A DNA stretch of 48,658 nucleotides from Candidatus Omnitrophota bacterium (lineage in GTDB: Bacteria > Omnitrophota > Omnitrophia > Omnitrophales > Aquincolibacteriaceae): assembly GCA_043803685.1 (NCBI GenBank), contig JAZDJU010000059.1, forward strand, positions 1 through 48,658, written 5' to 3'. The notes below the pieces were generated by a model that saw nothing but the letters and a program-made list of their open reading frames with translations, was not told where the DNA came from and ran no database searches. The translations under genes were made by a program, and so were the position numbers. This document shows, piece by piece, positions 743-47,973 of the stretch (positions are counted from its first letter, which is position 1; every line of letters begins with the position of its first letter).

Positions 743-3700
743 CCGAATTTCGGAACGCGTGACGGCGGCCTTCGGAGTAACGACGACGATTCCGGCTGTC
801 CCCGTTTCATACCGGAATCCCTTCGGACTGCTCGCTGCATCCACGAATTTACCATCGCCCCGTGTAAATGCGTCCTTGCTGTTCGCCAGGAGATACACGC
901 TCATGATCTTCTCCCCGATCTCTGAGCTCTTCGAGGCCACAGCATCCTGAATTTCAGTGTAAGTATAACCTTTGCCATCGGGGTAATATTTCTTCCCCGT
1001 CAGAACGATCATGGCAACCTTCCCGCTTTCCGTGATCCCGATAAGGTTGTGGGGATAACGCGCGGGACGCATCTTGACATGAAGGTTATTGTTCTCAATA
1101 TAATACTCGCCTGGCGCTAACTCATTCCAAGGCTTGGCTATCACAGGTTTATAGTCCCAGAGCCAGTTCTGCAACGCTCCCTTTTCAATCGCCGCCCGAA
1201 TCTCGACGGGCGTCGAACCCTTCTTCACATAAGGTTCCAGATCCACCGCTCCGGTAAGATACGGCGTCAGATCGATTTCCGTATAACCATCGCGCTGTGC
1301 CGCTTTGAGAAGTTCAGGCCTGTCCTGGGGAACGACCGGGTATTCCTTGCCACGCCTCAACTGATCGAGGCCGATATTCGCCCCGTACTTTGGCCCGCCA
1401 TCCGGGTTCTGGGTCAAAAACTGCGGAACGTCATACAACTGAAAAATATCGCTAAATTGGTGCGAGACACGCGCCAGCGGAACCTTCACGCCATTCTCGA
1501 TGAGTCTCTGTCCAAAGACCGCGAAATTTATGTCCCCACCCATATGTTTCTTCTCAGGATCCGCCGCACGATAGACACGCACACCGCCCTTAACAGCGGC
1601 GTCTTTCAGGAACCGGAGGTCCTCGGAAGACACATGACGGTCCTTCCAGGAAACGAACATACTGTAAGTTCTGTCCTGGAACGGTTCATTGAGCGCGTGA
1701 TAAAGCTTCCCGGTCTCGCCGTTATAAGCCACGAACCAGTCATTGTGGTAGAGGTCGTGATAGGAGTAGAGCGCAAGTTGCCCCACCGATGCATTGTTCA
1801 CAGGCAGGAGCGGCGTCTCAAACTCAGTCCACGGCCTATCCGCTCCCTTGGGAAGCCCATGATCGCTCGGATACATATTGTTGATCGCCTCATTCGCCAC
1901 GAATCGAAGATATTTCGTAGCCGGATCGATCACATCCACCACCTGTGGATATTGCTCTCGCATCTCAGAACGAGCGCTGCCGGTCTTTGAGACATTCTCT
2001 GAAGGATTACGCACCGCGGTCGTGGCTAACTGCATCCGGAGCGCGCCAAGATCGCCCTTGGCTTTCTTGTAAGTCCGCCCCCCGCCCAAGTAAGGCAGCG
2101 AGATAAGATCCTTCCGATGCTCCTGCTCAAGCTTCGATTTCTTTTCAGAAATTCGCGCACTTAGCGTCTTATCATCAACCGGTTTATCCGAGACTTCATT
2201 TTCATCCGCAACAGCTTGAATAGCCGCTTGCATCGCCTCAAACAATTTCTCATCTGAGAGGGTATAGACATCCTTCCAAGCCGAAATACCATCAATCCCC
2301 AAAAGAAGCGGGTGCATGGCGGTAAAAGCCTTGTACAGTGCCTCACCCATCGGAAGATCCTTAACATCCTCATAACGAACACCCGAAGTGTTCAGAAGCC
2401 CCTGGAACTGCGGGACAAATCTCTGATAAGACATCGCCTCGATCCCGGGCTGCAATACTTTCGGATCGGTCACTCCCGCCAGAGCACGAGCCGAGCCCAA
2501 CAATGCCGAAAGATCCGTCTTCGTCAACCGCGCCGACGGAATTCTTGAAATCTCTTCGGCGATCGCGTGTCCTTTTTGAACGCTGGAAAGCGCAGACGAA
2601 CCGTTGATCTTGAGGATCTCCTTTTGCACCTTTTCCCGGGTCTCGTCACTAATATCTTCACTGAAGATCAAACTCACGAGTTCCAGCCAATCCAGAGGAC
2701 CGTTGACATAGGCCGACAAAGAATGCTCCATCGCACTTTCAAAATCATCTGCGATCCCTAAACGGCTCTCGATCATGGACCATCTCTCGAACCCGCCCAC
2801 GATCTTCGGAAGCGTCTTGCGAACCACCGCATTTCCGTTTTCCTTAACCGTCTCCGCCTTGTAAGGAATGCTGTTGATCATCCGGGCGAGATAACTCGTT
2901 CCATCCGCATATTGAAGCGTCGTAAGGGTCTCATCCCCATAGACCACAAGCTTCTGCGCAGGTTCAGAATTCCCGACCTCCCGGACCTTTCCAGGCTCAA
3001 AATCGACCCCGAGAACAACACCCCCTTCTCCATGAAACTCCATCGGACCTTTCACTGTGGAATCGATGATCTTCGTCCTTGCAGGGATCCGAAGTGTTTC
3101 ACCATTGAGATAAATCTTTGAGCTCTCAATGACCACATGTTCGCTGATCTCCACCGTACCTGTCCCAGAAAACTCCACGTTCCTTAGGAGATAATGAAGG
3201 TCCGCACGATTCCCGTTATAAACCACCGTAATACCGTCTGCCTTCTTGACCTGGATCTCCTTGGGACCGGAATAATCCCTCAAATACTGCTCCCACATCA
3301 GGAAATACTGCTCCAGTCCCGCAATGTCACTGACAACACTGCCTTCCCCGTACGAGATCCCGTAGATCTTCGAGACGTACTTCTGAACAATGGGCCGGGC
3401 ACGCAATGTCACTACTGGCTTTTGTCCGGACTTCGGGAAAAAGCCGCCGAACACTGTCTCGAAAACGCTCACAGGAATACGCGCCAAGCGACCATCTTTT
3501 CCGTAAACACTCTGCTTGTTAAAATCCTCCACCAAGTGATAGCTCGTATCCGCCTTCTCGATCACAAAGAAGATGTTCTCGATCACCTGGGCGTCTTCAC
3601 CCTTCGAAGAATGATCGTACGCCAGCTTCACGAGCGCTTTCTCATTGGGCTTCTCACGAAAATCCTGCATCACTCCCGCCGCATCCGTCACATAGATCCC

Positions 3701-6700
3701 GCGCTGCGTCAACACGCGTCTTGCGATGTTGGCTTCCGCTCGAGACCAGATCTTTTGGAACGTCGGATTGCCATTCAATCCCGCTGTGTCCCAAGCAAAC
3801 TGGCTCATCAGAGGCTCAAGCGCATCCCGGTCCTTGGCACTCAACACTAAAGCTTCCGGACCCGCAGCAGCGATCTGAAAATCAGAAGGAAGTTCCGACA
3901 ACGGCTTGCCGCCAAGATGGATTTTCCCGAAACGGATACGTCCGTCACTGGCCAACCACAACTTGAAACCCTTACCCAGTTTCGGAAGGAGGAGCCACAT
4001 CACCCCACCCGTCAGCATATTCCCCTCAAGGAAGGTCATGCCCTCCGCCATCAAGGTCTTCGACCAGTGCTCGAACCGGATCCCGGCATTGGCCGCGCGA
4101 GTCTTCTCGCCGCCGTCTGAGACGTTCGCCGTATATTCCTGCAAATAAAAATCCCTGCCCATCCGGTCAAGGACACGTCTCCTGGATGTAAAGGTTCCGG
4201 GAAGATCATGATCTAAAGGCTTGTACGGTTTCGCCTCGCCGGGAAGAGTCACACCCGGGGACTGGATCGAGAGGAAGAACGTGATGTTCCCGTTGTATTT
4301 CTTGGACATCTCGCGCAAGAAACTCACGTAAGCCAGATACGTCCGGGGAGTAAAGTTCTGAATATTGATGATAAAGAACGGCTTGAGTTTGCCTTCTCTC
4401 ACGGCCTCCGCAAAGATCCCCTGCAAACGATCAAACTCGTCACTCGAGGTCTCGGCACTCGAAATCTCAAAAGGTGTCTCCGTATCCAAATGACGCTTCT
4501 CTTCACCCGTCAGCAACAGCTCTGAAGCCTGAGCCTTGCCCGGAACCTCCCGGACCACAAGCAGGGACGATGAGAAGAGAACCTCCTCGATCCACGTCGC
4601 AACCTCTACATCCTTGTTCCCCATCGCCAGTTTTTCCAACTCGTCCGTGAAAAGAATGCCGTCATTAAGGACTTCCTCACGAGACATTCCCGACGGAACA
4701 TTGCTTTGCGACAACACCGCCAAGTAATGGAGACGAACGATAGTGCTCTGGCGATCCTCATCCGCAGCATAAGGATGCTGCTTGAAATAAACCCGGGCTT
4801 CCTCAAGCGCTTTCTCTGAAACAGGCTCTGCCACACGATGCGGCTCCGCGATACGGCTGATCGGGTCCTTCAGCGAATCATAAAGCACGACACGAACATC
4901 CGATTCTTTCGGAGAAACAGGTGCTGTTTCAAAAGGAGGCGTTTTCAACCCAACGAAATCGAGAAGTTCCTGGTTCCCGAGCACCTGGAGAGGATCCGCG
5001 CTATGCACCAACGCGTAAAGATCGACCTCCGAGGCCTCCCCTTGCTGCAACTCATAAAGACGGTTCCCGATCACAAGTGACTTCCCATCCCATGGTTTTC
5101 CATACTCGACCACCCGACGAATACGAAGCTCGGCTCCCGTATCCATGCGCACCAGCATCAGCGAATCCCCGTCCCCACTCTTCTCAACCGAAAGAACACT
5201 GCTGAAGCTATCAGCAAGCGCACCCAACGTGATCCCAGTCTCTCCCAAATACGCCGCCACCTGGCGCATCTCGGAACGAGCCCCGCCAACCGCTGAGACA
5301 TCCCCCATGGGATTGCGCACCGCAGTCGTCGCTAACTGCATCCTGAGCGCTCCAAGATCGCCCTTGGCCTTCTTGTAAGTCCGCCCTCCACCCAAATACG
5401 GCAACGAAATGAGATCTTTCCGATGCTCCTTCTCAATCGTCGCAGTGAGCTTTGCCAAATCCTTGTTATCAGCCTCTTCACCAGCCATCTCTTTTTTAGT
5501 CACAAACGCTTGAACTGCCGCCTGCGTCTTCTCGAGCAATTTCCCAGAAGAAAGGGTATAAACATCTTCCCAGGTTGAAATGCCGGGAATTCCCAAGAGT
5601 AGCGGGTGCATGGCCGAAAAAGCTTTGTACAGAGCTTCACCCATCTGTAGATTTTTGACTTCATCGTAACGAACGCCCGACTTATTCAACAGATCCCGGA
5701 ATTGCGGGACAAACCTCTGCTGCGACATCGCCTCGATCCCGGGCTGCAACACACTCGGATTCGTCACACCCACCAAAGCACTAGCCGACCCTAACAGTGG
5801 AGAGAGATCCGTCTTCGTCAGTCGCGCCGACGGAATGTCTGCGATCACTTTGGCGATCGCATGTCCCTTTTGGACCGGCGAAAGTGCGGAGGAGCCGTTG
5901 ATCTTGAGTATTTCCTTTTGCACCTTCCCCCGGGTCTCATCACTAATATCCTCACTAAAGATCAAACTTACAAGCTCAAGCCAATCCAGAGGACCACTGA
6001 TATAGGCCGATAAAGGCCGCTCCATCGCGGCCTCAAATTCATCCTTGATCCCTAAACGGCTCTCGATCAAGGACCATCTCTCGAACCCCCCCACGATCTT
6101 AGGAAGCGTTTTGCGGACCACTAAAGAACTTTCGCTAGCCTTAACTTCCTCCGCCTTGTAGGGAATACTATTGACCATTCGTGTGAGGTAACTCGTCCCA
6201 TCCGCATATTGAAGCGTCGAGAGGGTCTCATCGCCATAGACCACAAGCCTGTCCGGCGTGGAACCATTGATCTCCTGGACCTTTCCAGACTCAAAATCAA
6301 CCCCAAGAACAACGCCACCCTCCCCATGAAACTCCATCGGACCCTTCACACTGGAATCAATGATCTTCGTTCTCGCCGGGATGCTCAGCATTTCACCTTG
6401 AAGCGCGATCTTCGAACTCTCGATCACAACATGCTCGCCGATCTCCACCGTCCCTGTCCCGGAAAACTCCACGTTCCTTAGGAGATAATGAAGGTCCGCC
6501 GGATTCCCGTTATAAGTCACCGTAATACCATCCGTCTTCTTGACCTCGATCTCCTTGGAACCGGCATAATCCCTCAAATACTGTTCCCACATCAGGAAAT
6601 ATTGCTCCAGTCCAGCGATATCGCTGACAACGCTCCCTTCCCCGTACGAGATCCCGTAGATTTTGGCAACATGTTTCTGAACGATCGGACGGGTGCGCAA

Positions 6701-30455: not shown

Positions 30456-30481
30456 GGAAACCTAAAAAATTTTTAATGATA

Positions 30482-30506
30482 TAAGTCGTTATTAATCAAT
30501 GTGTTA
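30482..30506. promoter_or_regulatory. IHF-consensus-like site upstream of the giant A promoter
   Basis: AATCAATGTGTTA (30494-30506) matches WATCAANNNNTTR, with a weaker inverted copy (TAAGTCGTTATTA) adjacent. Confidence 0.3.
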
Positions 30507-31702: not shown

Positions 31703-32381
31703 AAGCGCCTCCCTCCCTTTTATAAAGAGAAACAAGGTGCTCGGCCTCTTCGGGTCCGGAGGGCGGAAATCCCATGAGGTCCAAATAGAGCTGCAGGTCC
31801 GAAACCGCGCGGTATCCTTTAATTTTCCTGGAGTCCCTGAAAACGGAGCCCCGGTAAAAAGGCATGGCAAAACAGACATTGCCTCCCTGGACGAGTTTCA
31901 AAAGGCCCGTCTGGATCTCCATTTCTTTAAGAAAGGAGGCAAAATGATCCCGCTCCAGGTCAAGATAAAGGAAGTGCCGCTCATCCTTAACATAAGTCTC
32001 GATCAACCGGCTTGCGCTAAAAAGCGTCAGGGCATAAGCGATCTTTTTATCTTCCAGATAGCGAACGCAAACTTTCAGAAGATCCGGTTTCGGATAAAAA
32101 TAAAAGGTCTGGAGATTCTTCTCGAAGGAATACTGGCTCGTCCAATCCTTGAGGAGTTTTTCTTTTCGGATCAAACGGCTATAGCTTCCCGGCCCCTTCT
32201 GCACCCGCTCCACATACCCCAAGGACTCCGCCTTCGCCAGAACCTCGCTAGCGAACCCCTTGGAAACGCCCCGCTTGGCAAAATCGAGGGTCGTCCATTT
32301 TCTGTCCGGCTCCTCCAGCATCCCTCGAAGGATGAGAGAAGAACGATCGCTGAAGATATTTTGCACGAGCTGTCGGGTCAT
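31689..32381 (-). CDS. AbiEi-family antitoxin / transcriptional regulator, ~230 aa
   Basis: N-terminal wHTH (WTTLDFAKRGVSKGFASEVLAKAESLGYV), LLKDW, and C-terminal VSDLQLYLDL...GPEEAEHL typical of AbiEi_2. Start moved to ATG 32381 because a promoter and a repeat lie within the track's longer 5' extension. Confidence 0.8.
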   Translation of the reverse strand: MTRQLVQNIFSDRSSLILRGMLEEPDRKWTTLDFAKRGVSKGFASEVLAKAESLGYVERVQKGPGSYSRLIRKEKLLKDWTSQYSFEKNLQTFYFYPKPDLLKVCVRYLEDKKIAYALTLFSASRLIETYVKDERHFLYLDLERDHFASFLKEMEIQTGLLKLVQGGNVCFAMPFYRGSVFRDSRKIKGYRAVSDLQLYLDLMGFPPSGPEEAEHLVSLYKREGGAFVGS

Positions 32382-32439
32382 ATGAGTATCTCGCTCATTG
32401 TTATGTCTCAATATATATCGAGAGTTACGATCTGTCGAG

Positions 32440-32467
32440 ACTATATATTTTGAATTATAACTGTCAA
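32440..32467 (-). promoter_or_regulatory. Sigma70 promoter of the AbiE-like operon with an overlapping inverted repeat
   Basis: TTGACA (32467-32462), 16-nt spacer, TATAGT (32445-32440). AATATATA (32410-32417) and TATATATT (32442-32449) form an inverted pair that may be an autoregulatory operator. Confidence 0.7.
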
Positions 32468-32496
32468 CGCGGATGGGGTCAATAGCTGAAGCGGAT

Positions 32497-32615
32497 GTCA
32501 TTGCGAGGAGCGATTTTTGCGACGCGGCAATCTCGCTTTTAAAACAGACTGTCCGCCAGAGGACGGATCCGTCCAATGTTTTATGGCGGACTTCACCCTT
32601 CGGGTTCGCAATGAC
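32497..32615. repeat. REP-like palindromic element (GTCATTGCGA...TCGCAATGAC) containing a nested TCCGCCA...TGGCGGA hairpin
   Basis: Perfect 10-bp terminal inverted repeat, internal GCGACGCGGCAATCTC and CTTCACCCTTCGGG, and an inner palindrome at 32552-32590. Confidence 0.75.
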
Positions 32616-32617
32616 GT

Positions 32618-32654
32618 AAAAAAAGACAGGCTACTTTATGAAAAGTAGCCTGTC
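32618..32654 (-). terminator. Intrinsic terminator downstream of giant B
   Basis: 13-bp perfect stem GACAGGCTACTTT/AAAGTAGCCTGTC followed by T7 on the minus strand. A T-run also follows on the plus strand, so it may be bidirectional. Confidence 0.75.
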
Positions 32655-32695
32655 CCCTTTTTGAGGTAGAATTGCCTGAACAAATACATTACGCC

Positions 32696-32726
32696 GAGGC
32701 ACCTATCCCCAAGGGATAGGTACTTC
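32696..32726. repeat. Short hairpin just past the giant B stop codon
   Basis: ACCTATCCC-CAA-GGGATAGGT, a perfect 9-bp stem with imperfect extension. Confidence 0.5.
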
Positions 32727-32751
32727 TGCGTGCGGATCCTTGGATGATCCG

Positions 32752-38700: not shown

Positions 38701-41700
38701 CTGCACCATCAGGTGCGGCATGATGGACGTAAAATGACTTCCAGGGCCGATCAGGATCACATCCTGGGGTTTTGCCAGCCTGATAGACTCAAGAAGCGCA
38801 TGGTTGGGCTCAAGACGAACGGGCGCGGTCCCCCCGCGCAAAATATTCACGAACTCACCGAATCCATCCAGCAACCCGATCTTCAGGATCTTCGAAAGAT
38901 TGATGAGTTCCGTGATGTTCGTCTGTTTTTTGACAAAACGGCTCACCCAATACACGCGTGCGCCGGCTTTGCTTTCAAAAAGCGGTCCCTCCTTCACCTT
39001 CCCTGTCGCCTGATCCCACTCCCTGCCGGTCCCATCCGGCATCACGATCTTCACGTTCCCTTCGTCACTGGTGAAGGTGAGATTATCGGGATCACTGTCA
39101 TCCAATTTCCACAACTTGCCGTCCACCTGCAAAGCAATTCCGCCGAATTCAGCTGTGATCTCGATACCCTCTTCGATCCCGATCGTTCGCGATGCGTCGC
39201 CCGGTACCACCTCTTTCCTTCCAGGTTCCCCCTCCTTCAACATGGGCCTTGTGACCGACACAGTTCCATTCTCCCCTCGGGTGATCACCGCGGGATTCGG
39301 ATAGGCCGTCACCGGCTTTCCCGTCTTCGGGTCCGTACTCGGCATGCCGATCGCGAGCGTGTGGCCCTCGTATTCCGCGTACAACGTCTTGGGATCCAGA
39401 CTCGAGAGCGTCACTGAAAATTGCTCAGCCCCCGCCGCATCCACAGCCTCTTTCAGCGCCTGGTCATATTTCTTCTGCGCCTCCCGGCTGCCAAATGCGG
39501 GCTTATCTTTTTTCTTTTCGTCGGCCTCTGCAAACAACCCCTTATTCACCAGAAAACCAAGGAGATAAATATTCCGGATACTCTGACCGTTCACCTCGAT
39601 CAGCTTGGCTTTCTCGCCTTCCTGAAGTGTTTCGTTCCTGTTCTGGATCTCCCGATTAAGTTCGTCCACCTTCCGCACAGCTGCCAAAAGGATCCGGGCG
39701 AAATAAAAGAAATCCGGCTGAAGCTCTAAAGGCTGCGCCTCTATCCCGGCATCCGCGATAGTCCTGTGGATAAAAGGAAGCACCATTTCTTCGAATGTGG
39801 GATTTTTTCCCTTCTCCACCGAGATCCTGCCGCCATCACCCATCAGGTGGATCTTTTTATCGAGCGTCATCGCTCCGGAAGTAGCGTTCATAAGATCTCC
39901 CAAAGGCGGCGTGATCCCAAAACCGGCATCGTTCAAAGTCTTGATCAATTTCGCGGTGCTTCCCCCGTCATCGGTGTTTCCCACAACGCTTTTGATCCCC
40001 GCATGAGCGCGGATCCCGAGACTTTCAAGCACGGGCACCCAGAGCGTTCCCGACGAAGTGCCGCCCGTAATGGTAATGACCTGGGGTTTTTCTTTCGCAG
40101 CTTCCGGCATGTCCGCCCGGGTGGGATGCTCCGGAGAGAAATTGTCCCGGAATTTCAAAAGGTCCTCGATCTTTCCCCCTTCATTCCGTAGACTCTCCGT
40201 CAAAAGAAAGCTCAGACGCTCGAGAAGATATTCCTCACGCTTTTTTCCGTTCTTCCGGACTTTCTCCGCGTACCGGTTGCGCAACTGGATAATCTGCGTC
40301 GCATAATGTAGATCGGTGGTCAATGCCTCGACATTGCCGCCGACAACGCCCGCGTCCACAGCTTCCATGATCGCGCTTTCCACCACCCCGCTGAGAACCC
40401 AACCATTCGGCCTGTCAGTCGAGATCAGATCGTGGAAAAAAGGAGGCTGGGACCGGATACTCTCCAGCACTTCCAGAAGATCGGCCTGCCATTTTTGGTC
40501 CTGGGAACGCGCGAAGAGCGCCTGCGCCACATGCCGGAATCCCGAGAAATAAGCTTTATTTTTAAGAAGTCCTTCCAACTTTTCTTTAGCTTTGTTATCT
40601 TTCCCCTCGATCAACAAACCGCTGATGGTCGCGAATGCGCGGCCTTCGGACACCGTCAAGGGCCGGTACCCCACCCAACGAGGCTCCCCTTCGGTATCCC
40701 TGATCTTTTCCGCAAATTCGCGCTGACGCGCGGAGTCTTTAATACTGGCGGGAGTATCCCCGACATTCACAAATCGCGTCTGATATTGCGAACCGCTCGA
40801 AGCACCGGATGCCTTCAAATTCCGATCCGCGATCATTCCAAAAAGATTCCAGGCCAAGGCTTGGGTCTCCCCATTTTTGGGGTCAACCGTCCACATTCGC
40901 GTCAGATGCACATCGTCCATACCGTTCTTGGGATCATAGTCCGCGTACCCGCCGTTCAGATATTGCGCGTCAACATCTGTTTTGAGTTCGTACAAAAGAT
41001 CCGCCTGTACGATGGCCGTGTTCGAGGAGATGAGCAATTCCGCGCCTGAGCTTCCATTTTCCATCACCGCGAAATGGTTTCGGATAAATGCTTGTCGCTC
41101 TTTGTCTAGATCTTTCCAGTTTTTCAAATCTTTATTCACGGCCAACAACAGTTCCTGCGTCAAAACATATCCATCATCACTGATGCTGAAGTACTCGTTG
41201 TCTTTCTCCTCCCGGAGTTTTTGCACGGCACCCTTCAGCGCCTTGGGGTCCCCCTTCCGGAGAGATTCGAGTTTATTTTCAAGAACCGCCAGTTTTTCAC
41301 CGAACTCGGACCAGACCTTGTCATGTCTGGCACCCTTCATCTTCTTCCGGTGCGGGATAATGCCCCAGTCCGTGTAAAGAAGCAGTTGTTGGCCGTCCCC
41401 GTTAAAAAAGAAATTTCCTTTACCTTCGATCTTTCCATCTGACGGTTTGCCGCCAGCAACGGCTTGCGCGTCCTGGCCCAGGATCTCCAGATAGGTGATC
41501 AGTGAGGGGTTTGTAAGAGATCGATCGATCGCGGTCGACATCTCGCCGAACGCCACCTGGAAATAGGCTGTCTTTTTATTCCGGGTCTTCAGGATCGATG
41601 AAACCTGGACCAGGTGATCGCCATGCCCACCTTCGGGCGTCGTTTGAAAGATCTCGACCTCCTCGGGGTCAACGCCCAGGTACGACCTGACTTTTTCGGG

Positions 41701-44700
41701 ATCAAGATACTGGACAGTCACTTCTTTCTTGCGGCTCCCCGGAGAGAATTCCGCGATCTTCGGATCGAGCACGAAGGCATTCTTGACCCTGTCATATCCG
41801 GCAAGATATTCATCCTTAACGAGCAGGCCAAGGATCTTTTCTCCGACCACGACCGCGGGCTTAACACCCGGAGTCCGGTAAGAACCCTGCACGGTGTAAC
41901 CAATGTTTGTCTTTTTAAGACCCGCGCGGGCGGCGGTCTTGTGAATAAAACTTGAAAAGCGGGTCGCGTAGCCGCCGGCCATGATCACAGGACGAACACC
42001 GAAATGATCGCGGAACAGATCCTGCTGGTATTGGATCGATTCCAATGTCTGACCAATATTTCGCAATTTCTGGTGCATCATTTTCAGCGCGGCCAATGCC
42101 CGAGATGTGGCCTCCTCGCGGCGATCTTCCGGTAAACGCTGATCCAGGATAAGGTCCTCAACACCCATGAGTTTATGAACGCTATCCAGCATCTGTTGGG
42201 TCAACTTGATCCCCGTCGCAATTTCTTGTCCGACCAGCTGATGGTCGCCGCGTTCCGGAGATTCTTTTGGGGAAGCAACCGCTTGCTTGTGGTATGAATG
42301 ATTCCCGCGAAGTCTTTCGACCAGGATCTTGAAGAACCGCCTTCGCTCATCATCTTCGCGCCCGAAACTCGAGCGGCTCCCATCACCGAATCCCGAGCTC
42401 ATCGTCGCGGACAAGATAGGAAGAACAGTAATCTCAGCTACGGTATCAAGCTTCACTTTGCCGTCATCATGTAACACACCGTCATATCTTTCATCCCGTA
42501 TCTCCACCACAGGCGGACGCACATTTTTCCCGGCGGTCAAGTGATAGCGGAAATTCGGATAGATCGTCTTGAGCTCTTCACGAAAAAGATTTTTGTCTAC
42601 TACTTTTTCAGTGAGCCGTTCGGTGTAATATTCGCCCAAAAGACCTTCCGCATGGATGTCCCCACTCACAGGATCTTCGCTTACGCCCCCAAGGATTTCC
42701 AGGATCTTTTCAGTTTCTTTCCTGCCAAGCCGAAGACTTGAATGATAATTTTCATCCTTTTCAACATTCCATTTCCCTGATCCCTCCCCGGCTTTCCCCT
42801 TAAAATTAAGCCCGTATTTTGTGATCACTCCGTTAGCATACAAAGGAATAGTAAAGTGAGATTTTCTCCCCAAAAGTCCAGGCTCGGTCTTTTTATGATT
42901 AAAGTATTTCGCGAGGGGATCCAGAACCTTCTCCTTCATTAACTCCCCCTCGTGATCCGCAAAAAATCCGATCCTCACCCCTCTTTCGATAAGTTCGCCA
43001 AGGGCTATCAGGGTATCTTCGCGGTCTGTGGCCAGCGCTTCCGTATCCATGGTCCTCCCGCCGAGATCGGCGGTCGTGGGCTTACGACCCACGATCACAT
43101 TGTCCACGGAGAATCCAATGAATTCGGGCAAGGGATGGGTGGCAGGGTCTTTTCCGTTATTCAGCAAGAGCTCTTGTAACCATACCGTTGTCGCGCCGGG
43201 ACCTGCGCCTATCTTCTTCACTTGAGGGTGATCCATCACCTGCCCCTGATCATAATCCACCGCGAGGACCGGCAACCCATCAATACCCGTAAGGATGCCG
43301 TCCCGGTCTTCCGGAGAAGACGTCAGTGCACCGATAAAATATCCGTTCTTCTCTTCAAGATTAAATTCCTTGAGAAATTCTTCCATCACGGTTTTTTTTG
43401 TAACAGGCTCTCTTTTATCATCCGCCCGGGTGATATCAATGGATGCCTCGCCGCCTTCACGGATCGCAATATCCACGGCTTCTCCGTTCTCACCCACCGG
43501 CAACTTCACAACCACATTCATCCGCATGCCTTGCGACGAGCTACCTCTCATTTCGGAACGCCGTACATTATGAAAAACACCCGTCTCCTCTGCCTTTGAA
43601 AGAACATTCCTGATGAATTGCCTTCTCGAGTCTTCTTCTGTGTCCGACACGTTATTCCCGGGCCACGCAGCGGAGGCGAACGGCGCCAGAGCGATCACTG
43701 AAACGCTGCCATCATCCATCGGATCCCGTTCTTCGATGAACGGGAATGACATATTGCCGGCGGGTGTCTTTTTATAAAAATTTGGATAAATGGACTCAAA
43801 AGACTCCGCAGGCACACGACGGCCTTGGGAATCGCGTGTGATCGAATCGTAATAATGTCCTAACGATCCCTCAAGGACCATTCCCGCGGCAGTTTCCCGG
43901 ATCGATCCAAGACTTTTTAAAATAACCTGTTTGGTTTCCTGGTTCATACGGAAGGGACGCCCATAGTCCGCATCGAAAAGCTGCTCGATCCCCGCGGAGG
44001 CAACGTTCACATGAAATTTCGTGGTCATAAGACTGGAATAAAAATCGATCCGTGCTGTTTTTTCTCCAAGTTGAGAGCCGACGAGTTTGCCCAGAGGCTC
44101 TCCGATGCGCTCAAAAGCGACCTTCGAACTGCTATCCGTAAAAAAAACAATTTGAACGCCTCTCAGAACAAGCTTTGCCAGCGCCTCGGCGATCCCGCGC
44201 CGGTCGGCCATAAGCCCTTCTTTGGACGCACTGCCCGATATGGATTTTTTGAGCCCAAGCACGGTATCATCAATATCAAGACCGACGAACAAGGGGAGCT
44301 TGTTCTTGGGAAGGTCCGCAAGTCTTGCGAGTTCCCGCTCCGTAGCGCCGACCCCGACTCCGATACCCCGAACACCCGGAATGATCCCCTTTTGATCCGC
44401 ATCGACTCCAAGCACGGTCAATCCTTTGACCCCAGACATAGCCCCATCTCGCGCATCGACGCTCTGGTTTTCGTTACCGATGTAAATGCCGCGCTTGGGA
44501 TCAAGTCCCGTGGAGCGGACATAATCTTCCATAGCGTTCTTTTTGGTGGGCATCGGGTGCATGGCAAACTCGACCGTATAATTACCGCCCTCCCGAAGCT
44601 TAACAGTCGCCACGGAACCATCCGCTTTAACAATATCCACCAAATAGCTTTCTCTCACCACTTTCCGCACCTCGGAGCGAGAAATATTCGGATCCTTCGA

Positions 44701-46914
44701 ATGGCTAACTTCAGTCGCTTTCCTAAGGGCCTCGTCGGCCCCAAGCCCCATCGCACGAAAATTCGCCGCATTACGCTCTAACTCCGAATACGTATCCCCG
44801 ACTTTGAAAGGATTCTCCTTAAAAGAGACCGAAACGAGAGAGCCATCGCCCAATTGTAGAAATGTATCCTCCTCATTGCCCGTCCCGTAAGGATCATTCA
44901 ATAAATCCACAACGGTCAGGCCTCCTTCTTGCCTAACTTCAGAACGAGCCAAATCAAGCGTAGGAGAACCAATGATGGTCTTAGCAAAAGCGGACTTGAG
45001 GCCGGAGTTCTCTGGTTCGGAATTGATCATGCCGAGGACAAGCTCACGAATATCGCGAGCCCAATCCTTGGTTGTGGCAATCCCGGTCACGGCGACTCGT
45101 TGGGCGCGATCAATAAGACTAAGAAGTGCCGCGATCTGCGAAGTCTTGATATCACGACTGCCCAACATCGACCGAAGATAGATTTCATGATCTCGCTTTG
45201 AGACTTCGGCGATGCGCGGGGTGATCTGGATGTAAGAGCAGTTCCTGGATGAGGCGAGTTTCTTAAGGCCGTCGGCGTGGAAACCACCGGTGACGATCAC
45301 AGCGCGTTGCTGCTTCGTCTCGCTCATTTTCTTCAAGGCGTTTTGGAACATCTTGTTTTCGCGAAGAATGGCAGTCTCGTAAAACTCGACCGCCTTCGCG
45401 AAAACAGACTGAAGACTGGAGACTGAAGACTGCAGTCCCCTCACCCCATCCCTCTCCCCCTGGGAGAGGACCGGCGAGGGCAAAGCTTTTTGCTGTGGTC
45501 TGTGGTCTGCGGTCTGTAGTCCCGCCGCAAGCTCCTCGGATGAGATATGCAAGTTCCGGAGTTCTTCGTACTCGGAACGCGTCATCTCAAGGCTGAATAG
45601 ACGCTTTAAGAGGTAGAGCTTGCGTGCGGCGGTGAGATACTCTTTCTCTTCCGGTGTCTGAGCCAAAGCGGTCTGGATCATGTCTTTCAGGCGCACGGTC
45701 TCTTCGTGGAGCCCCTTCCCTTCCATCTCCTGCATCAGGATGATGTATTGGGCATAGAGCGTCCAGTTCGGCCACGCCTTCATCGAAAAATCTTTCGGGA
45801 GTTTCTCGAAAGCCTGATCAAATGCGGCGCGAAGCGGCGAATATTCACGACCCACGTTCCACGTGCCACGCTCCACGCCTCCCGTGGCCCTTGGCTCGTG
45901 GCTCGTGGCTCGAAACTTCCCAATGATCTCCTTCGAAATTCCCCGTTTCTCGAGTTCCTTAATGAAGGACGCCTCTTCGACACTCGCTTTATCGCGGTCG
46001 ATCTTGGAGCCGATGGCCTGGAGACGGAAATAGCGGATGAGGGACGGATACTGATCCTGATAAAAAGCATCGGAAAGGTCGGTCTTGAGATGTTTCTTGC
46101 TTCCTTCTCCAAGGGTCTTGATCCAGCTTCCAAAAGAGACGGTCCCGGAACCTAGAGCCTCTTCCTGGCGGACGAGGCTTAGGAGATCCTTGTTCAGCTT
46201 GGAAGCAAAGCGTTTGTCGATCGACGCACGGAGCTTCATTAAATAATTCTCAGCGGTCTTTTCTTTCTTCGCAACCTGGATGAACGCCTCACGATCTTTT
46301 TTGTAGGCATCTAAATCCTCCATGCCAAAAGCCTGCATGGAGCCGGATGACGGATGGAGGATGGAGGATGGAGTAAGCGGTTTTTCGCCTTCCGCCATCC
46401 GCCCTCCGCCATCCATTTTTTGATTGATCAAAAAATTCTCCGGCCCCGTCAAATAGCCTTCCTGCATGAGCTTGTCCGTGACCTTGCGATTGAAATCGGG
46501 ATTTCCGGGAAAGAGGCGAAAGAGTTCGGGGTTGAGTTTGCCGGCGGCGCCTTCGAGGAACATCGTCTTTACGGAAGAGTTCTTTTCGATATAACCCAGA
46601 AGCTTCTCGATATTATTTTCCGCCTGATAATTTCCGTGCGCGGATTGGATATGAATGAATGCCGGGGCTTTGGGATCGCCCGTGACCGTCTCGGTCACTT
46701 GACCGAATTCTGCGGGGATGGCCAGCGTACTCGCCGTAAGTGAAGACACTTCTCCCGCGAGCGTGGACACACCCGTCGCGGCGAATGTTTCAGGAGTAAT
46801 TCCAAGACTGGTAAGAGTAAAATTAAAAACGACGGCGGAGGCGATGAACTTCATGGCGGGAGTACGTTGGTCCATTGTGGGGGCCCATCCTTTTCTTTGG
46901 ATTTTAAAAGCCAT
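32752..46914 (-). CDS. Giant multidomain protein B, 4720 aa, modules delimited by RSExR
   Basis: Uninterrupted ORF in the track. Hydrophobic N-terminus (MKFIASAVVFNFTLTSLGITPETFA), N-domain shared with giant A, ten RSE[VM]R plus one RSEAR, and recognisable enzyme motifs. The exact start (46914, 46875 or 46854) is uncertain. Confidence 0.95.
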   Translation of the reverse strand: MAFKIQRKGWAPTMDQRTPAMKFIASAVVFNFTLTSLGITPETFAATGVSTLAGEVSSLTASTLAIPAEFGQVTETVTGDPKAPAFIHIQSAHGNYQAENNIEKLLGYIEKNSSVKTMFLEGAAGKLNPELFRLFPGNPDFNRKVTDKLMQEGYLTGPENFLINQKMDGGGRMAEGEKPLTPSSILHPSSGSMQAFGMEDLDAYKKDREAFIQVAKKEKTAENYLMKLRASIDKRFASKLNKDLLSLVRQEEALGSGTVSFGSWIKTLGEGSKKHLKTDLSDAFYQDQYPSLIRYFRLQAIGSKIDRDKASVEEASFIKELEKRGISKEIIGKFRATSHEPRATGGVERGTWNVGREYSPLRAAFDQAFEKLPKDFSMKAWPNWTLYAQYIILMQEMEGKGLHEETVRLKDMIQTALAQTPEEKEYLTAARKLYLLKRLFSLEMTRSEYEELRNLHISSEELAAGLQTADHRPQQKALPSPVLSQGERDGVRGLQSSVSSLQSVFAKAVEFYETAILRENKMFQNALKKMSETKQQRAVIVTGGFHADGLKKLASSRNCSYIQITPRIAEVSKRDHEIYLRSMLGSRDIKTSQIAALLSLIDRAQRVAVTGIATTKDWARDIRELVLGMINSEPENSGLKSAFAKTIIGSPTLDLARSEVRQEGGLTVVDLLNDPYGTGNEEDTFLQLGDGSLVSVSFKENPFKVGDTYSELERNAANFRAMGLGADEALRKATEVSHSKDPNISRSEVRKVVRESYLVDIVKADGSVATVKLREGGNYTVEFAMHPMPTKKNAMEDYVRSTGLDPKRGIYIGNENQSVDARDGAMSGVKGLTVLGVDADQKGIIPGVRGIGVGVGATERELARLADLPKNKLPLFVGLDIDDTVLGLKKSISGSASKEGLMADRRGIAEALAKLVLRGVQIVFFTDSSSKVAFERIGEPLGKLVGSQLGEKTARIDFYSSLMTTKFHVNVASAGIEQLFDADYGRPFRMNQETKQVILKSLGSIRETAAGMVLEGSLGHYYDSITRDSQGRRVPAESFESIYPNFYKKTPAGNMSFPFIEERDPMDDGSVSVIALAPFASAAWPGNNVSDTEEDSRRQFIRNVLSKAEETGVFHNVRRSEMRGSSSQGMRMNVVVKLPVGENGEAVDIAIREGGEASIDITRADDKREPVTKKTVMEEFLKEFNLEEKNGYFIGALTSSPEDRDGILTGIDGLPVLAVDYDQGQVMDHPQVKKIGAGPGATTVWLQELLLNNGKDPATHPLPEFIGFSVDNVIVGRKPTTADLGGRTMDTEALATDREDTLIALGELIERGVRIGFFADHEGELMKEKVLDPLAKYFNHKKTEPGLLGRKSHFTIPLYANGVITKYGLNFKGKAGEGSGKWNVEKDENYHSSLRLGRKETEKILEILGGVSEDPVSGDIHAEGLLGEYYTERLTEKVVDKNLFREELKTIYPNFRYHLTAGKNVRPPVVEIRDERYDGVLHDDGKVKLDTVAEITVLPILSATMSSGFGDGSRSSFGREDDERRRFFKILVERLRGNHSYHKQAVASPKESPERGDHQLVGQEIATGIKLTQQMLDSVHKLMGVEDLILDQRLPEDRREEATSRALAALKMMHQKLRNIGQTLESIQYQQDLFRDHFGVRPVIMAGGYATRFSSFIHKTAARAGLKKTNIGYTVQGSYRTPGVKPAVVVGEKILGLLVKDEYLAGYDRVKNAFVLDPKIAEFSPGSRKKEVTVQYLDPEKVRSYLGVDPEEVEIFQTTPEGGHGDHLVQVSSILKTRNKKTAYFQVAFGEMSTAIDRSLTNPSLITYLEILGQDAQAVAGGKPSDGKIEGKGNFFFNGDGQQLLLYTDWGIIPHRKKMKGARHDKVWSEFGEKLAVLENKLESLRKGDPKALKGAVQKLREEKDNEYFSISDDGYVLTQELLLAVNKDLKNWKDLDKERQAFIRNHFAVMENGSSGAELLISSNTAIVQADLLYELKTDVDAQYLNGGYADYDPKNGMDDVHLTRMWTVDPKNGETQALAWNLFGMIADRNLKASGASSGSQYQTRFVNVGDTPASIKDSARQREFAEKIRDTEGEPRWVGYRPLTVSEGRAFATISGLLIEGKDNKAKEKLEGLLKNKAYFSGFRHVAQALFARSQDQKWQADLLEVLESIRSQPPFFHDLISTDRPNGWVLSGVVESAIMEAVDAGVVGGNVEALTTDLHYATQIIQLRNRYAEKVRKNGKKREEYLLERLSFLLTESLRNEGGKIEDLLKFRDNFSPEHPTRADMPEAAKEKPQVITITGGTSSGTLWVPVLESLGIRAHAGIKSVVGNTDDGGSTAKLIKTLNDAGFGITPPLGDLMNATSGAMTLDKKIHLMGDGGRISVEKGKNPTFEEMVLPFIHRTIADAGIEAQPLELQPDFFYFARILLAAVRKVDELNREIQNRNETLQEGEKAKLIEVNGQSIRNIYLLGFLVNKGLFAEADEKKKDKPAFGSREAQKKYDQALKEAVDAAGAEQFSVTLSSLDPKTLYAEYEGHTLAIGMPSTDPKTGKPVTAYPNPAVITRGENGTVSVTRPMLKEGEPGRKEVVPGDASRTIGIEEGIEITAEFGGIALQVDGKLWKLDDSDPDNLTFTSDEGNVKIVMPDGTGREWDQATGKVKEGPLFESKAGARVYWVSRFVKKQTNITELINLSKILKIGLLDGFGEFVNILRGGTAPVRLEPNHALLESIRLAKPQDVILIGPGSHFTSIMPHLMVQGMPEALQTARGNGARVILVMNGSFDNETANYSPYELLETLEVTIKERSKNLRLTDMITDIAIAVPDHRIAREKVKEEIEKQVERMLGGGEFNEVFKARSLNSVEDKQKLLWDEAALEEAVRLLSKDAKRKSSLGELAALVKKDKHDPQSRLSKKLREIDEDPSALMPSEVAWLILAALEEKESILKANAAASAMSADRLDEAAAKTVFLDFLGEQTSLSIEQGAEALRELQFFVLLHAMYPQIKFSIRTDVGAASDAAKKSRGGIALMWEEKELIKSRWPELNEHIIKFPTRTVVAKRVAKREQGKFEDRVLFDPKVVAETLAPHIKRSEMRSFTPAERAIVDQAGQTLVNALGQRAKYDVKTGTWTPITETDLLRMKFDMGLVLGSADERVPEEAAELLKLLRLNGSEGMEVITSGKYGPPEKVLLALNKPDGKGGRITEAEYFAAKMAAKGVPVKEKFIEKESISTVENLWKSRAIILKEMPSAKRILLMGMPWMQAKQAGVFVVEFTKQEGKTLAEAGIELVSYTPYIPDIASMSDEKAMAWLKVGLDEASKVKNWPNQNGKDGKPLSAPVPMGSDVENAMKTLSALLTRVEVESQVTNNQGPGLRSEGEASKKSRSEVRMATLGNFDKIGSRQDSSVGDVFPVSGHGKVLLETQGLRPLMLQNARSEVRHSFLKLFFLAGAFAVVLSAPSAKESFPAQFRIEPQVQVRYTAREFGNEIGMTGRIFNNFFPLMDAVNVVLIGEEDAYRLDNDENIVRMSREYQMLPATFSEMAGFALIKGQYHRRMADLITDSLHLPAVSLPVIFLKKKPGGSNLVAFAHELSHLGQVAYPEGRTSLDGYAAIAQEREAFLNSMLVFRLTNPKSTFFDFARAQDGVTKERFPDAAIQRILASNPGSHLETERQMWQAIDVEIGPRQSLDQLSAQELNDLKTRVLKKNASAANVVGQANEPDDASSESSSQEVRTAPPLRDDDFQGIRGGEFADALKRWYSELFETAIVPVERVEMVLGYQRSFAETYQREAKKELMDVVLQLRLGQIQSLIYIGLKKGNGASSIAAEIRPVLRKAAEATSDGSESRKTLLLLSDRAMDVVEVLKKKYEEIQKQGRSEVRLKPAQEKQFNRIEDRKPQTMTVSSLLFPAFAMPDLAHFQFQLMGVDTHVLNAVFAALAVITFTRLNGYLVLYLISGYKRFERSGSELTGEQALKARLSRDARYMALFAGLACGEYLKYFIGELTLGILLFQFTWITALFFLEMSVYRFVFLKFFNFIRSIAGMDRKDASGTKVVPESRSEVRLTEAEFQKAKKELKESLFLDYFLLGESFNGREYNFIYDLRWKRVSRRIAAAETLGRSKDFRAVPILIDALGDSRESVRNAVEAALQEIGGSVATTALNEYSWKERERREVAESNSVSSDDDEDRGYWEGIGGPGGSRSEVRLTPAQEKQFQKAMSDLQPKWWDGRFNDSGVNRKLAAVRILRDKKALPELLAALEHESAFVRKAVAEALAVLKDFTAIPVLTVALDKEKDGAVWFAIAEALWQCGDTKITGRLIAALTDASAYVRSMSAELLGKHKEKNAVSALIDALKDAPTSAARALRDIKDDRLIQLQRYFVWISYGMGSYNALDAEAIQVIKANLERGEETKATYVEEQEQSHLEGEDNSVTDEGWPKGGGPFPGPGTDDRYKVVDVPGELKITIVRSEARSSIRAENGDKADVAPSEVRTETPVVSQVSLANTSSLGTKIRVALGVVEKIVSPLVSSAPAFAEEIKPQLFVGTAHYQQVSVVPSAFATKWPVFGKIISRFATASTERMVIDQRQGIPDAASVLPLVTFALYNARSEVRLALIADASEVAAFEKELAALSAKGALPQNFKVQAFGDENEFVGAFAGFYNSAAPFGKSVALITDRENSVVTQKIGSRKHLLSVVGASDPLKQTASTLLAADKLLNESIWSLGYHFVSVEKLGGLEALMAELTTYVAAQAKVLASA
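33910..34680 (-). repeat. HEAT/PBS-lyase-like repeats in two RSEVR-delimited modules of giant B
   Basis: AVPILIDALGDSRESVRNAVEAALQEIG, ALPELLAALEHESAFVRKAVAEALA and LIAALTDASAYVRSMSAELLG. Confidence 0.85.
35800..36681 (-). other. Internal signal-like segment plus HExxH zinc-metallopeptidase-like module in giant B
   Basis: RSEVR-HSFLKLFFLAGAFAVVLSAPSA, then AFAHELSHLGQ (36220-36234) with a downstream QEREAF. Confidence 0.55.
37030..37570 (-). other. DUF218 (YdcF/ElyC/SanA)-like domain in giant B
   Basis: DMGLVLGS, AAELL, VITSG, TEAEYFA...GVP...IEKESISTVENL and RILLM. Confidence 0.75.
37730..40086 (-). other. YvcK/CofD (UPF0052)-like domain in giant B, with large insertions
   Basis: VITITGGTS, NTDDGGST, PPLGDLMN, ILIGPGSHFTSIMPHL and FDPKVVA. 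Confidence 0.75.
40730..42000 (-). other. GlmU/NTP-transferase-like domain in giant B
   Basis: PVIMAGGYATRFSSFIHKT, QTTPEGGHGDHL and QVAFGEM parallel ILAAGxGTRM.S..PK, Q...LGTGHA and LYGD. Confidence 0.6.
42300..44664 (-). other. Two circularly permuted HAD-like (class IIB) phosphatase units in giant B
   Basis: Unit 1: EGG..VEF..TKKNAM..IYIGNE..D, then GLDIDDTV..VFFTDS. Unit 2, after RSEMR: EGGEASIDI..TKKTVM..YFIGA..D, then GFSVDNVI..GFFADH. Confidence 0.65.
45405..45521. repeat. In-frame heptamer palindromic insertion with a nested CCCCTCACCCC...GGGAGAGG hairpin
   Basis: (NAGACTG)x4 and (CTGYRGT)x4 arms enclose CCCCTCACCCCATCCCTCTCCCCCTGGGAGAGGACCGGCGAGGG (45437-45480). Encodes LQTADHRPQQKALPSPVLSQGERDGVRGLQSSVSSLQS. 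Confidence 0.8.
45846..45912. repeat. In-frame heptamer palindromic insertion
   Basis: (CACGNNC)x4 facing (CGTGGCT-like)x4. Encodes RATSHEPRATGGVERGTWNVGRE. Confidence 0.8.
46345..46414. repeat. In-frame heptamer palindromic insertion
   Basis: (GGATGGA-like)x4 facing (NTCCGCC)x3. Encodes MDGGGRMAEGEKPLTPSSILHPSS, which is absent at the aligned position of giant A. Confidence 0.8.
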
Positions 46915-47971: not shown

Positions 47972-47973
47972 CG

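What the first reader, a model, noticed from the sequence alone, without database searches (positions are those of the whole stretch)
743..44946. Candidate bacterial polyprotein system: giant proteins punctuated by an RSE[VMIA]R linker
Seen: the pentapeptide occurs 7 times in giant A (28550, 13094, 8591, 8555, 5264, 1958, 743) and 11 times in giant B (44932, 44665, 43546, 37705, 36832, 36682, 35365, 34819, 34396, 33604, 33190), plus degenerate QREVR, SQEVR and PSEVR. Codons vary synonymously (CGT/CGC/CGG/AGG, TCT/TCC/TCG, GAA/GAG), so conservation acts at the peptide level. Nearly all copies fall between recognisable domains. Inference: a protease cleavage or export/chaperone recognition site that lets one giant gene yield many separate proteins, as in viral polyproteins.
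Basis: partly seen in the sequence, partly recalled or inferred. Interest (0 to 1): 0.92.

Follow-up and report, generated by a model that had tools for sequence, protein, structure and literature searches.

The report
Cut-here marks in giant bacterial proteins
Two giant proteins of an uncultured Omnitrophota bacterium are strings of gene-sized modules separated by one five-residue mark, most likely the place where they are cut into separate working proteins, which makes the open question of whether such giants are processed directly testable.

Summary
The motif is real. All 18 copies lie in frame at the stated positions (about 0.06 expected). Genome-wide, all 139 copies lie in ORFs of 1,000 aa or more, in proteins that share one N-terminal head domain.

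The motif marks module starts. It avoids Pfam domains (2 of 100 inside, 19.5 expected) and bounds shuffled and duplicated modules. It is often followed directly by Sec, lipoprotein or Tat signal peptides and is depleted of proline at the next residue. One window copy (33190) lies inside a folded domain.

Relatives use other genome-wide motifs (AxSLG, GARLA, RxSTSG). The head has a Tiki/EreA/ChaN-like fold with intact His/Glu residues. The motif follows the genome, not the head lineage, so a single shared protease is likelier than self-cleavage by each head. This genome has Tat-type signals after motifs but no TatC was found, which hints at processing inside a host cell.

Cleavage itself is not shown. 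The passages read in three Omnitrophota giant-protein papers report no such motif. This scan noted the motif and the head before, on other genomes and on another piece of this one.

The parts
2..30319 (-). Giant ORF A, at least 10,106 aa, truncated by the contig end; signal-peptide-like start (read by eye)
32752..46914 (-). Giant ORF B, 4,720 aa, complete: signal-like start, head, cargo modules, C-terminal domain
28700..30157 (-). Tiki/EreA/ChaN-like head of A (about aa 55-540; H94, E122, E175, R466, H494)
45115..46752 (-). Homologous head of B (about aa 55-600), 26% identical to that of A
28550..28564 (-). RSEIR, A aa 586: ends the head
   Evidence: linker before it has pLDDT under 50
13094..13108 (-). 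RSEVR, A aa 5738: between a transmembrane segment and a multi-pass membrane module
   Evidence: a copy at the matching place in a same-genus orthologue
8591..8605 (-). RSEVR, A aa 7239 (12 aa before the next copy)
8555..8569 (-). RSEMR, A aa 7251: start of duplicated module, copy 1
5264..5278 (-). RSEMR, A aa 8348: joint between the two duplicated modules
1958..1972 (-). RSEMR, A aa 9450: end of duplicate 2, start of a module shared with three unrelated giants (weak NAGPA match)
743..757 (-). RSEIR, A aa 9855
1955..8578 (-). Tandem duplication of an 1,100-aa module (aa 7248-8353 and 8345-9455; 84% DNA identity) whose ends coincide with motif copies
44932..44946 (-). RSEVR, B aa 657: ends the head region
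44665..44679 (-). RSEVR, B aa 746: start of an internal repeat (743-970 matches 1116-1370)
43546..43560 (-). RSEMR, B aa 1119: start of second repeat; motif kept at this joint in a 36%-identical relative
37705..37719 (-). RSEMR, B aa 3066: between the YvcK/CofD-like module (38476-38811) and the DUF218 module (37198-37557)
36832..36846 (-). RSEVR, B aa 3357: end of DUF218 module
36682..36696 (-). RSEVR, B aa 3407: directly followed by a signal-peptide-like segment
36625..36681 (-). Internal Sec-type signal-peptide-like segment (basic residue, hydrophobic core, small-residue end); called by hydropathy rule and by eye
35365..35379 (-). RSEVR, B aa 3846: start of a membrane module
34819..34833 (-). 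RSEVR, B aa 4028: start of a HEAT-like module
34396..34410 (-). RSEVR, B aa 4169: start of HEAT module (34096-34293)
33604..33618 (-). RSEAR, B aa 4433 (with PSEVR at 33547): start of C-terminal domain
33190..33204 (-). RSEVR, B aa 4571: NOT a module joint; lies on a strand of the C-terminal domain, absent in relatives
32755..33519 (-). Conserved alpha/beta C-terminal domain of B ending in an amphipathic-looking helix and Ser-Ala; no specific fold match

Best explanation
The giants are polyproteins: operons written as one reading frame. Each has an export-signal-like start, a conserved Tiki-like hydrolase head, a variable row of gene-sized cargo modules and a C-terminal domain ending in Ala-Ala or Ser-Ala. 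R-[S/A]-E-x-R (x = V, A, M, L, T, S or I) is the recognition site of a protease that cuts after the last Arg. The cut gives each module a free N-terminus, so its own Sec, lipoprotein or Tat signal can work and oligomeric enzymes can assemble. One enzyme shared by the whole genome does the cutting: an unidentified protease, or one master paralogue of the head. That is why all paralogues in a genome carry the same motif. It acts in a cytoplasm, either the producer's or that of a prokaryotic host. Shown: motif, placement, signals, lineage pattern, head fold. Inferred: cleavage, the cut position, the enzyme, the compartment.
For: Confinement. 139 of 139 genome copies are in 17 ORFs of 1,000 aa or more. 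13 of these carry the head; the other 4 lack their N-terminus at a contig end. 12 of 12 headless ORFs of 1,500 aa or more have none.

Placement. 2 of 100 copies fall inside Pfam stretches against 19.5 expected, in 12 proteins. With the motif masked, 54% of 81 cargo alignments start at a motif, against 11% in the null (maximum 20% in 200 draws). Duplications end at motifs. Cargo in relatives includes whole PGI, glutamate dehydrogenase, enolase and cytidylate kinase domains.

New N-termini. A charge-free hydrophobic stretch follows 120 of 1,569 motifs, precedes 27, and occurs at 3.5% of random sites. Lipoboxes: 10 of 1,569 (0.64% vs 0.10%). 8 of 16 Tat-like motifs lie within 40 aa after a copy, 1.5 expected.

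Cut register. Pro at +1 is 1.1% vs 5.6% in flanks (n=1,578), 0 of 144 for AxSLG and 0 of 118 for GARLA, while Pro at -1 of RSExR is normal.

Shared enzyme. Heads from the AxSLG genome do not form one clade against RSExR heads (AU p=0.0009). No head column separates the two motif types.
Against: No cleavage, peptide or structural evidence of binding was obtained. No protease was identified: S8, C39, C11, C14 and TraB families were not found in this 91%-complete genome, and the C25 search had no positive control. One of 18 window copies is inside a folded domain, and A has 5,150 aa without a copy. Five genomes with headed giants showed no repeated motif in 12 loci examined. An N-terminal export signal with no transmembrane stop before the first motif (129 of 136 proteins) fits poorly with cutting in the producer's own cytoplasm unless it is co-translational. 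ClpS was not found, so the depletion of F/W/Y/L/K/R at +1 cannot be credited to this cell's N-end rule. The statistics pool related proteins, which are not independent.
Confidence: 0.5

Rival explanations
1. Polyprotein cut by its own head in cis, MARTX-style: after export or delivery, the Tiki-like domain of each giant cleaves its own chain at the motifs.
For: Motif and head co-occur in every testable protein of this genome. The head's best full-domain fold matches are Tiki-superfamily members (HopBA1 Z 8.6/172 aligned/rmsd 4.3, ChaN 8.3/187/6.1, EreC 8.0/180/3.7). H94 (282 of 284), E122 (283), R466 (284) and H494 (284) are kept. The superfamily includes a site-specific endopeptidase (PMC6254334, passages). 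Stand-alone heads sit directly upstream of long genes in several genomes.
Against: Head lineages predate the motif switch, so about 20 paralogues at 22-30% identity would have had to change specificity in parallel. No specificity column was found. Heads occur with no detectable motif. Many Tiki-fold proteins are esterases or non-enzymes.
Confidence: 0.2
2. An uncut docking tag: a chaperone, unfoldase or translocon binds the motif to thread or re-route each module of an intact giant protein.
For: Explains module-start placement and genome-wide sharing equally well. Internal signal-like segments could act as anchors.
Against: Lipoprotein and Tat signals normally need a free N-terminus (established knowledge). 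Segments with a single hydrophobic helix outnumber two-helix ones 168 to 69 (crude hydropathy rule), which would put successive motifs on opposite sides of a membrane. Pro exclusion at +1 is typical of scissile bonds.
Confidence: 0.15
3. A DNA-level joint: the 15 bases are a recombination or cassette-insertion site, and the peptide is a by-product.
For: Strong synonymous bias that codon context does not explain. Near-invariant codons in one genome (G012, 15 copies). Duplications end at motifs.
Against: 121 of 128 matches to the DNA consensus are in-frame peptide copies; the other 7 fall in other frames in or next to ordinary ORFs. 145 different 15-mers among 173 copies. The bias differs between genomes with the same peptide and is near absent in one. 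Amino-acid constraints at +1 and the signal peptides are unexplained.
Confidence: 0.08
4. Internal translation start or ribosome skip: the motif's codons carry a ribosome-binding site or start codon, so modules are made separately without proteolysis.
For: Some copies contain a Shine-Dalgarno-like run. The fourth codon is ATG, GTG or TTG in 84 of 167 copies here. SD plus in-frame start after the motif is 16% vs 9% background in this genome.
Against: No such excess in the other well-sampled genomes (6 vs 6, 7 vs 7, 2 vs 4, 6 vs 6%; one small set, G086, 3 of 22 vs 7%). Half the copies have no start codon at that place. Five unrelated motifs argue against a property of the conserved ribosome.
Confidence: 0.05

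Closest known systems
Omnitrophota giant multi-enzyme proteins ('Archaeovorins', bioRxiv 10.1101/2023.11.21.568195; 'multi-enzyme metabolic clusters', bioRxiv 10.64898/2026.06.07.730766; PMC10066038)
   Same: Same phylum (source names), signal peptide plus transmembrane helices, many unrelated enzyme domains in one frame. The 2023 preprint proposes cleavage and says cleavage points are unknown (passages).
   Different: In the passages read, none reports a junction motif, lineage-specific motifs, internal export signals or a Tiki-like head. The 2026 preprint has 0 hits for motif, cleav, polyprotein, linker and Tiki. The proposed C39 and S8 peptidases were not found in this genome. These proteins are shorter (2-16 kaa).
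MARTX toxins (search listing and abstract starts)
   Same: Works alike in the novel reading: secreted giant, conserved ends, variable cargo, release by site-specific cuts inside a target cell.
   Different: No RTX repeats or cysteine protease domain were found. There are many paralogues per genome, the cargo is metabolic and membrane proteins with bacterial export signals, and the motif is shared genome-wide.
Viral polyproteins with consensus cleavage sites (recalled)
   Same: One ORF, many products, a short consensus at joints with restrictions on the residue after the cut.
   Different: This is a cellular gene family, found in 151 of 201 genomes of the phylum. The protease appears not to be tied to its own chain.
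Tiki/TraB/EreA/ChaN superfamily (HopBA1 5T09, ChaN 2G5G, EreC 6XCQ, Bcr135/136, RRSP)
   Same: Fold of the head core and order of His, Glu, Arg, His motifs.
   Different: About 270-aa helical insertion; Gln-x-x-His where the esterases have an acidic residue (recalled); no Pfam or NCBIfam family clearly assigned; substrate unknown.
Multi-core RiPP precursors such as cyanobactin PatE (recalled)
   Same: Short conserved recognition sequences between hypervariable cassettes, cut by a protease in trans.
   Different: Cassettes here are whole proteins (median 222 aa over 1,319 segments), not short peptides.

Membership tests
Tiki/TraB/EreA/ChaN superfamily (head domain) | Parallel beta-sheet core flanked by helices (Tiki fold) | tested here: met
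   Model pLDDT 78.9, pTM 0.70. The longest-aligned top matches are HopBA1, ChaN, EreC and Bcr135/136 at Z 7.4-8.6 over 167-187 residues. Support is moderate: rank 1 was a methyltransferase (Z 8.8, only 92 aligned), and Foldseek gave nothing at E<=0.001, though EreC and ChaN had the highest probabilities among the top rows.
Tiki/TraB/EreA/ChaN superfamily (head domain) | 2His/2Glu catalytic set plus conserved basic residue | tested here: inconclusive
   His94, Glu122, Arg466 and His494 are near-invariant in 284 heads. The first acidic position is Gln/variable; a further Glu175 is conserved. Mapping is by motif order and secondary structure, not by superposition.
Tiki/TraB/EreA/ChaN superfamily (head domain) | Match to a curated family profile | tested here: inconclusive
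   PF04187 ChaN in 6 of 18 members, best E 5e-4. No NCBIfam match. PF01963 not found in the genome.
Tiki/TraB/EreA/ChaN superfamily (head domain) | Peptidase activity | not testable with these tools
   Needs an assay.
Omnitrophota multi-enzyme giant proteins | Omnitrophota origin; many unrelated domains in one frame; signal peptide or membrane helices | tested here: met
   signal peptides judged by eye and hydropathy.
Archaeovorin subtype | C39 or S8 peptidase near the N-terminus; SecA-like domain; over 30,000 aa | tested here: not met
   No C39 or S8 in the genome. No SecA match in the window. B is 4,720 aa; A is truncated, so its full length is unknown.
MARTX toxins | RTX/MARTX repeats and InsP6-activated cysteine protease domain | tested here: not met
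   No such Pfam match in either giant.
Viral polyproteins | Viral genome context | tested here: not met
   The window is a contig of a bacterial genome; the family is in all 97 genomes of the class that were sampled. PHROGs was not searched.
Polyproteins in general | Demonstrated cleavage at the consensus | not testable with these tools
   Only indirect statistics.
Multi-core RiPP precursors | Short peptide cores with modifying enzymes nearby | tested here: not met
   Median segment 222 aa.

The most novel reading that the evidence does not exclude
A new protein-delivery system. These symbiotic or predatory bacteria export whole operons as single chains into a prokaryotic host's cytoplasm. There a co-delivered protease cuts them at a lineage-specific five-residue code, and the freed enzymes, membrane proteins, lipoproteins and Tat substrates are routed by the host's own machinery. 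The hint: this genome has three Tat-type signals 23-42 aa after motifs, yet no TatC or TatA was found, and TatC was found in only 3 of 19 genomes of the genus.
Probability: 0.3. Interest if true: 0.96.

Novelty: new variant of a known kind. Interest (0 to 1): 0.82.

Why it matters
Whether the giant proteins of Omnitrophota act as one chain or are cut up is a stated open question, and the lack of cleavage points was named as the obstacle. A five-residue site with a predicted cut position turns this into a direct proteomic and biochemical test. It also lets thousands of giant proteins be split into modules for annotation (9,706 clusters at 50% identity carry the head). If right, cellular bacteria use a virus-like polyprotein strategy genome-wide, with a code that changes between lineages, possibly to take over host cells.

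Tried and rejected

RNA runs: none was listed; this says nothing about expression.

Sequence search of the head profile against the PDB: 8 matches, none below E 0.005, no Tiki member. Foldseek: no match at E<=0.001 for head or C-domain. C-domain: generic alpha/beta matches only, best Z 8.0; ESM Atlas gave leads under 0.9 only.

A single profile for all C-terminal domains reached only 55 of 201 proteins, so a common C-domain family is not shown. Only the terminal Ala-Ala/Ser-Ala is general (14 of 14 complete giants vs 30 of 2,043 other ORFs).

Candidate trans proteases S8, C39, C11, C14 and TraB were not found. C25 and the ATP/ADP translocase searches had no positive control. The proteome was not scanned whole.

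Membrane-parity test (motifs always on one side): not supported. A palindrome in the motif DNA: no coupling of the variable bases beyond a slight one. Internal starts: not general. De novo motif search in G033, G055, G069, G150 and G140 found nothing convincing.

Literature searches. One search matched 817 papers on at least one term. The 20 listed had no RSExR word, only a surname; the other 797 were not seen. bioRxiv supplements were not read and could bear on novelty.
Full report
OBSERVATION. The window is the whole of contig C59 of a 2.89-Mb, 91%-complete genome. It holds two minus-strand giant ORFs: A (2..30319, at least 10,106 aa, cut by the contig end) and B (32752..46914, 4,720 aa). 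All 18 RSE[VMIA]R copies are in frame at the coordinates given, and the three degenerate copies exist. Composition predicts 0.039 copies in A and 0.022 in B. Across the genome all 139 copies lie in ORFs of 1,000 aa or more; none lies in 2,059 shorter ORFs, where 3.1 are expected. Near-variants with K for R, or D/Q/T for E/S, are not enriched; RAExR is (12 in giants). The working consensus is R-[S/A]-E-[V,A,M,L,T,S,I]-R.

ONE FAMILY. The motif does not mark long proteins in general. Of 17 motif-bearing ORFs, 13 share a roughly 500-aa N-terminal head, and the other 4 have lost their N-terminus at a contig end. All 12 headless ORFs of 1,500 aa or more have no copy. All 14 complete motif-bearing ORFs end in Ala-Ala or Ser-Ala, against 30 of 2,043 other ORFs. 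Relatives named by their sources are Omnitrophota. Of 52 long homologues (three from this genome), 40 carry RSExR and 12 do not; five of the 12 repeat an xxSLG motif instead. The head profile matched 151 of 201 genomes of the phylum and 9,706 clusters at 50% identity.

THE MOTIF MARKS MODULE STARTS. In 12 proteins (B, one other from this genome and 10 relatives; two scanned relatives were left out because they lack RSExR), 2 of 100 copies fell inside a Pfam stretch against 19.5 expected. Both lie at the start of a truncated TIM match (only the best stretch per family is reported). With the motif masked, 54% of 81 cargo alignments between different giants began within -5..+30 of a copy (null mean 11%, maximum 20%). 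31% ended within -30..+10 (null 12%), and 10 crossed a copy (null 36) (alignments are not independent). In A an 1,100-aa module is tandemly duplicated with ends at motif copies, and an internal repeat in B starts 3 aa before two copies. A 36-40%-identical relative of B keeps the motif at three of three testable joints. Median segment length is 222 aa. Against this, the copy at 33190 lies on a strand of B's C-terminal domain (pLDDT about 90) and is absent from 11 of 11 aligned relatives. A also has a 5,150-aa stretch without a copy.

MODULES LOOK LIKE INDEPENDENT GENES. A charge-free hydrophobic stretch begins within 25 aa after 120 of 1,569 dereplicated copies, before only 27, and at 3.5% of random sites. 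Ten carry lipoboxes (0.64% vs 0.10%). Eight of 16 Tat-like motifs lie within 40 aa after a copy, where 1.5 are expected; one passes the TIGR01409 cut-off. B has a Sec-like signal right after the copy at 36682. These calls rest on simple rules, not SignalP. The effect is also seen for GARLA (6 vs 1 of 114) but not for AxSLG (2 vs 4 of 144). Such signals normally need a free N-terminus in a cytoplasm (established knowledge). The residue after the motif is depleted of Pro (1.1% vs 5.6%, n=1,578; 0 of 144 and 0 of 118 for the other two motifs) and of aromatic residues, while Pro just before RSExR is normal. From this I infer a cut after the last Arg.

THE HEAD. The head keeps Q-x-x-H, E-G, G-x-E, R and G-G-[F/Y]-H motifs: H94 in 282, E122 in 283, R466 in 284 and H494 in 284 of 284 sequences. 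The model (pLDDT 78.9) matches HopBA1 (Z 8.6, 172 aligned, rmsd 4.3), ChaN (8.3, 187, 6.1), EreC (8.0, 180, 3.7) and Bcr135/136, behind one short generic match (Z 8.8, 92 aligned). Foldseek and PDB sequence search gave nothing significant. Pfam ChaN matched 6 of 18 members weakly. These structures define the Tiki superfamily, which includes esterases, non-enzymes and a site-specific endopeptidase with 2His/2Glu and an Arg (PMC6254334, passages). Stand-alone heads with signal-like starts lie directly upstream of long genes in several genomes. The head is therefore probably an active hydrolase tied to these proteins; its substrate is not shown.

THE CODE FOLLOWS THE GENOME. De novo search in 40 loci gave RSExR in three families of this order, AxSLG in G076, GARLA in G035/G047, RxSTSG in G012 and KxSSAG in G113. 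It gave nothing convincing in G033, G055, G069, G150 or G140 (12 loci). The patterns held on newly fetched loci. 24 of 25 G076 head proteins carry xxSLG (the exception is a stand-alone head), with one RSExR among them all; 18 of 18 G035/G047 proteins carry [G/A]ARL[A/S]; 11 of 11 G088 proteins carry RSExR. In the head tree, RSExR and AxSLG proteins interleave within well-supported clades, including that of giant A. Holding the 22 G076 heads together against 26 RSExR-genome heads is rejected (AU p=0.0009; two long-branch rows and proteins under 1,000 aa were left out). No alignment column separates the motif types. Paralogues older than the motif switch all changed motif together, which points to one shared reader rather than to each head reading its own chain. 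Exchange of cassettes between paralogues would also favour a shared motif, so cis cleavage is weakened, not excluded.

DNA LEVEL. The 173 copies use 145 different 15-mers, but codons are biased beyond context (first Arg CGY 84%). The bias differs between genomes and is near absent in G022. 121 of 128 matches to the DNA consensus are in-frame copies. I read this as peptide-level selection with spread by DNA copying. Internal translation starts are not general.

WHERE IS IT CUT? The proteins start with export-signal-like sequences, and 129 of 136 have no membrane helix between head and first motif, yet the cargo includes cytoplasmic enzymes and modules with their own signals. Either cutting is co-translational in the producer, or the chain is delivered to another cell. 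This genome has three Tat-type signals 23-42 aa after motifs. TatC was not found by family search, tblastn or phmmer, no TatA-like pattern was found, and the slot beside the ROK gene where relatives keep tatC holds a radical-SAM-like gene. TatC was found in 3 of 19 genomes of the genus and 59 of 96 of the order. The genome is incomplete, and the signals may be vestigial or usable by Sec, so this is a hint.

KNOWN WORK. West-Roberts et al. (10.1101/2023.11.21.568195; 12 passages) propose cleavage by C39 or S8 domains and state that cleavage points are unknown; neither family was found here. A 2026 preprint (10.64898/2026.06.07.730766; passages) has no hit for motif, cleav, polyprotein, linker, processing or Tiki, and downgrades internal signal-peptide calls as artefacts. 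Seymour et al. (PMC10066038; passages) has no hit for cleav or polyprotein. MARTX toxins are the nearest working analogy (listing); viral polyproteins and cyanobactin precursors are recalled. Searches found no description of the motif; supplements were not read. This scan's earlier notes report the motif and the head on other genomes and on another piece of this one. They are unchecked notes, not support. My Tiki idea was written down before the look-up; the Tat test and the 2026 preprint came from those notes.

VERDICT. Observation confirmed, interpretation partly supported. Cleavage at the motif is about 0.7 likely: 0.5 by a shared enzyme, 0.2 by the head in cis. It is an undescribed variant of the polyprotein strategy in a known but unexplained protein class, and makes a stated open question testable. 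Interest 0.82.

Noticed in passing
window 30911-32576 (-): Two genes between the giants match NTP_transf_8 and AbiEi_2: a type IV toxin-antitoxin-like pair.
   Followed up: no
window 47660-48387 (-): Minimal nucleotidyltransferase plus HEPN-like gene pair upstream of B.
   Followed up: no
window 23297-23812 (-), giant A aa 2170-2341: Weak outer-membrane-efflux (TolC-like) match, E 7e-4, below cut-off, inside the 5,150-aa motif-free helical module. Could be part of a channel.
   Followed up: partly
window 45409-45483, 45883-45912, 46348-46371 (-): In-frame tandem heptamer repeats and an inverted-repeat-like element inserted in loops of B's head. Two of the repeat strings occur 15-17 times in the genome; similar loops appear in other heads.
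   Followed up: partly
window 8870-13093 (-), giant A aa 5743-7150: Multi-pass membrane module that by eye resembles a processive glycosyltransferase; no Pfam or NCBIfam match supports this.
   Followed up: partly
L003:16202-18418 (+) (G000 C114): A 739-aa paralogue made of head plus C-terminal domain with almost no cargo and only degenerate motif copies, divergent from a giant gene.
   Followed up: partly
L133, L134, L136, L138: Stand-alone head genes (520-610 aa) tightly coupled upstream of long genes that have their own signal-like starts.
   Followed up: partly
L006:1977-3926 (-) and L010:6378-8054 (-): Modules behind the Tat-type signals: one has TPR repeats and, by eye, a Cys-His-Asp transglutaminase-like pattern; the other resembles a lytic transglycosylase by eye. 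Only the TPR and Tat parts have family matches.
   Followed up: partly
G000 C84, C98:2-3010, C12 (C-terminal domains): Other giants also have motif or near-motif copies inside their C-terminal domain, like the copy at 33190. Unexplained.
   Followed up: no
L065-L067 (G012): The RxSTSG motif is encoded by nearly invariant codons (Thr ACG in 15 of 15), suggesting recent DNA-level copying.
   Followed up: partly
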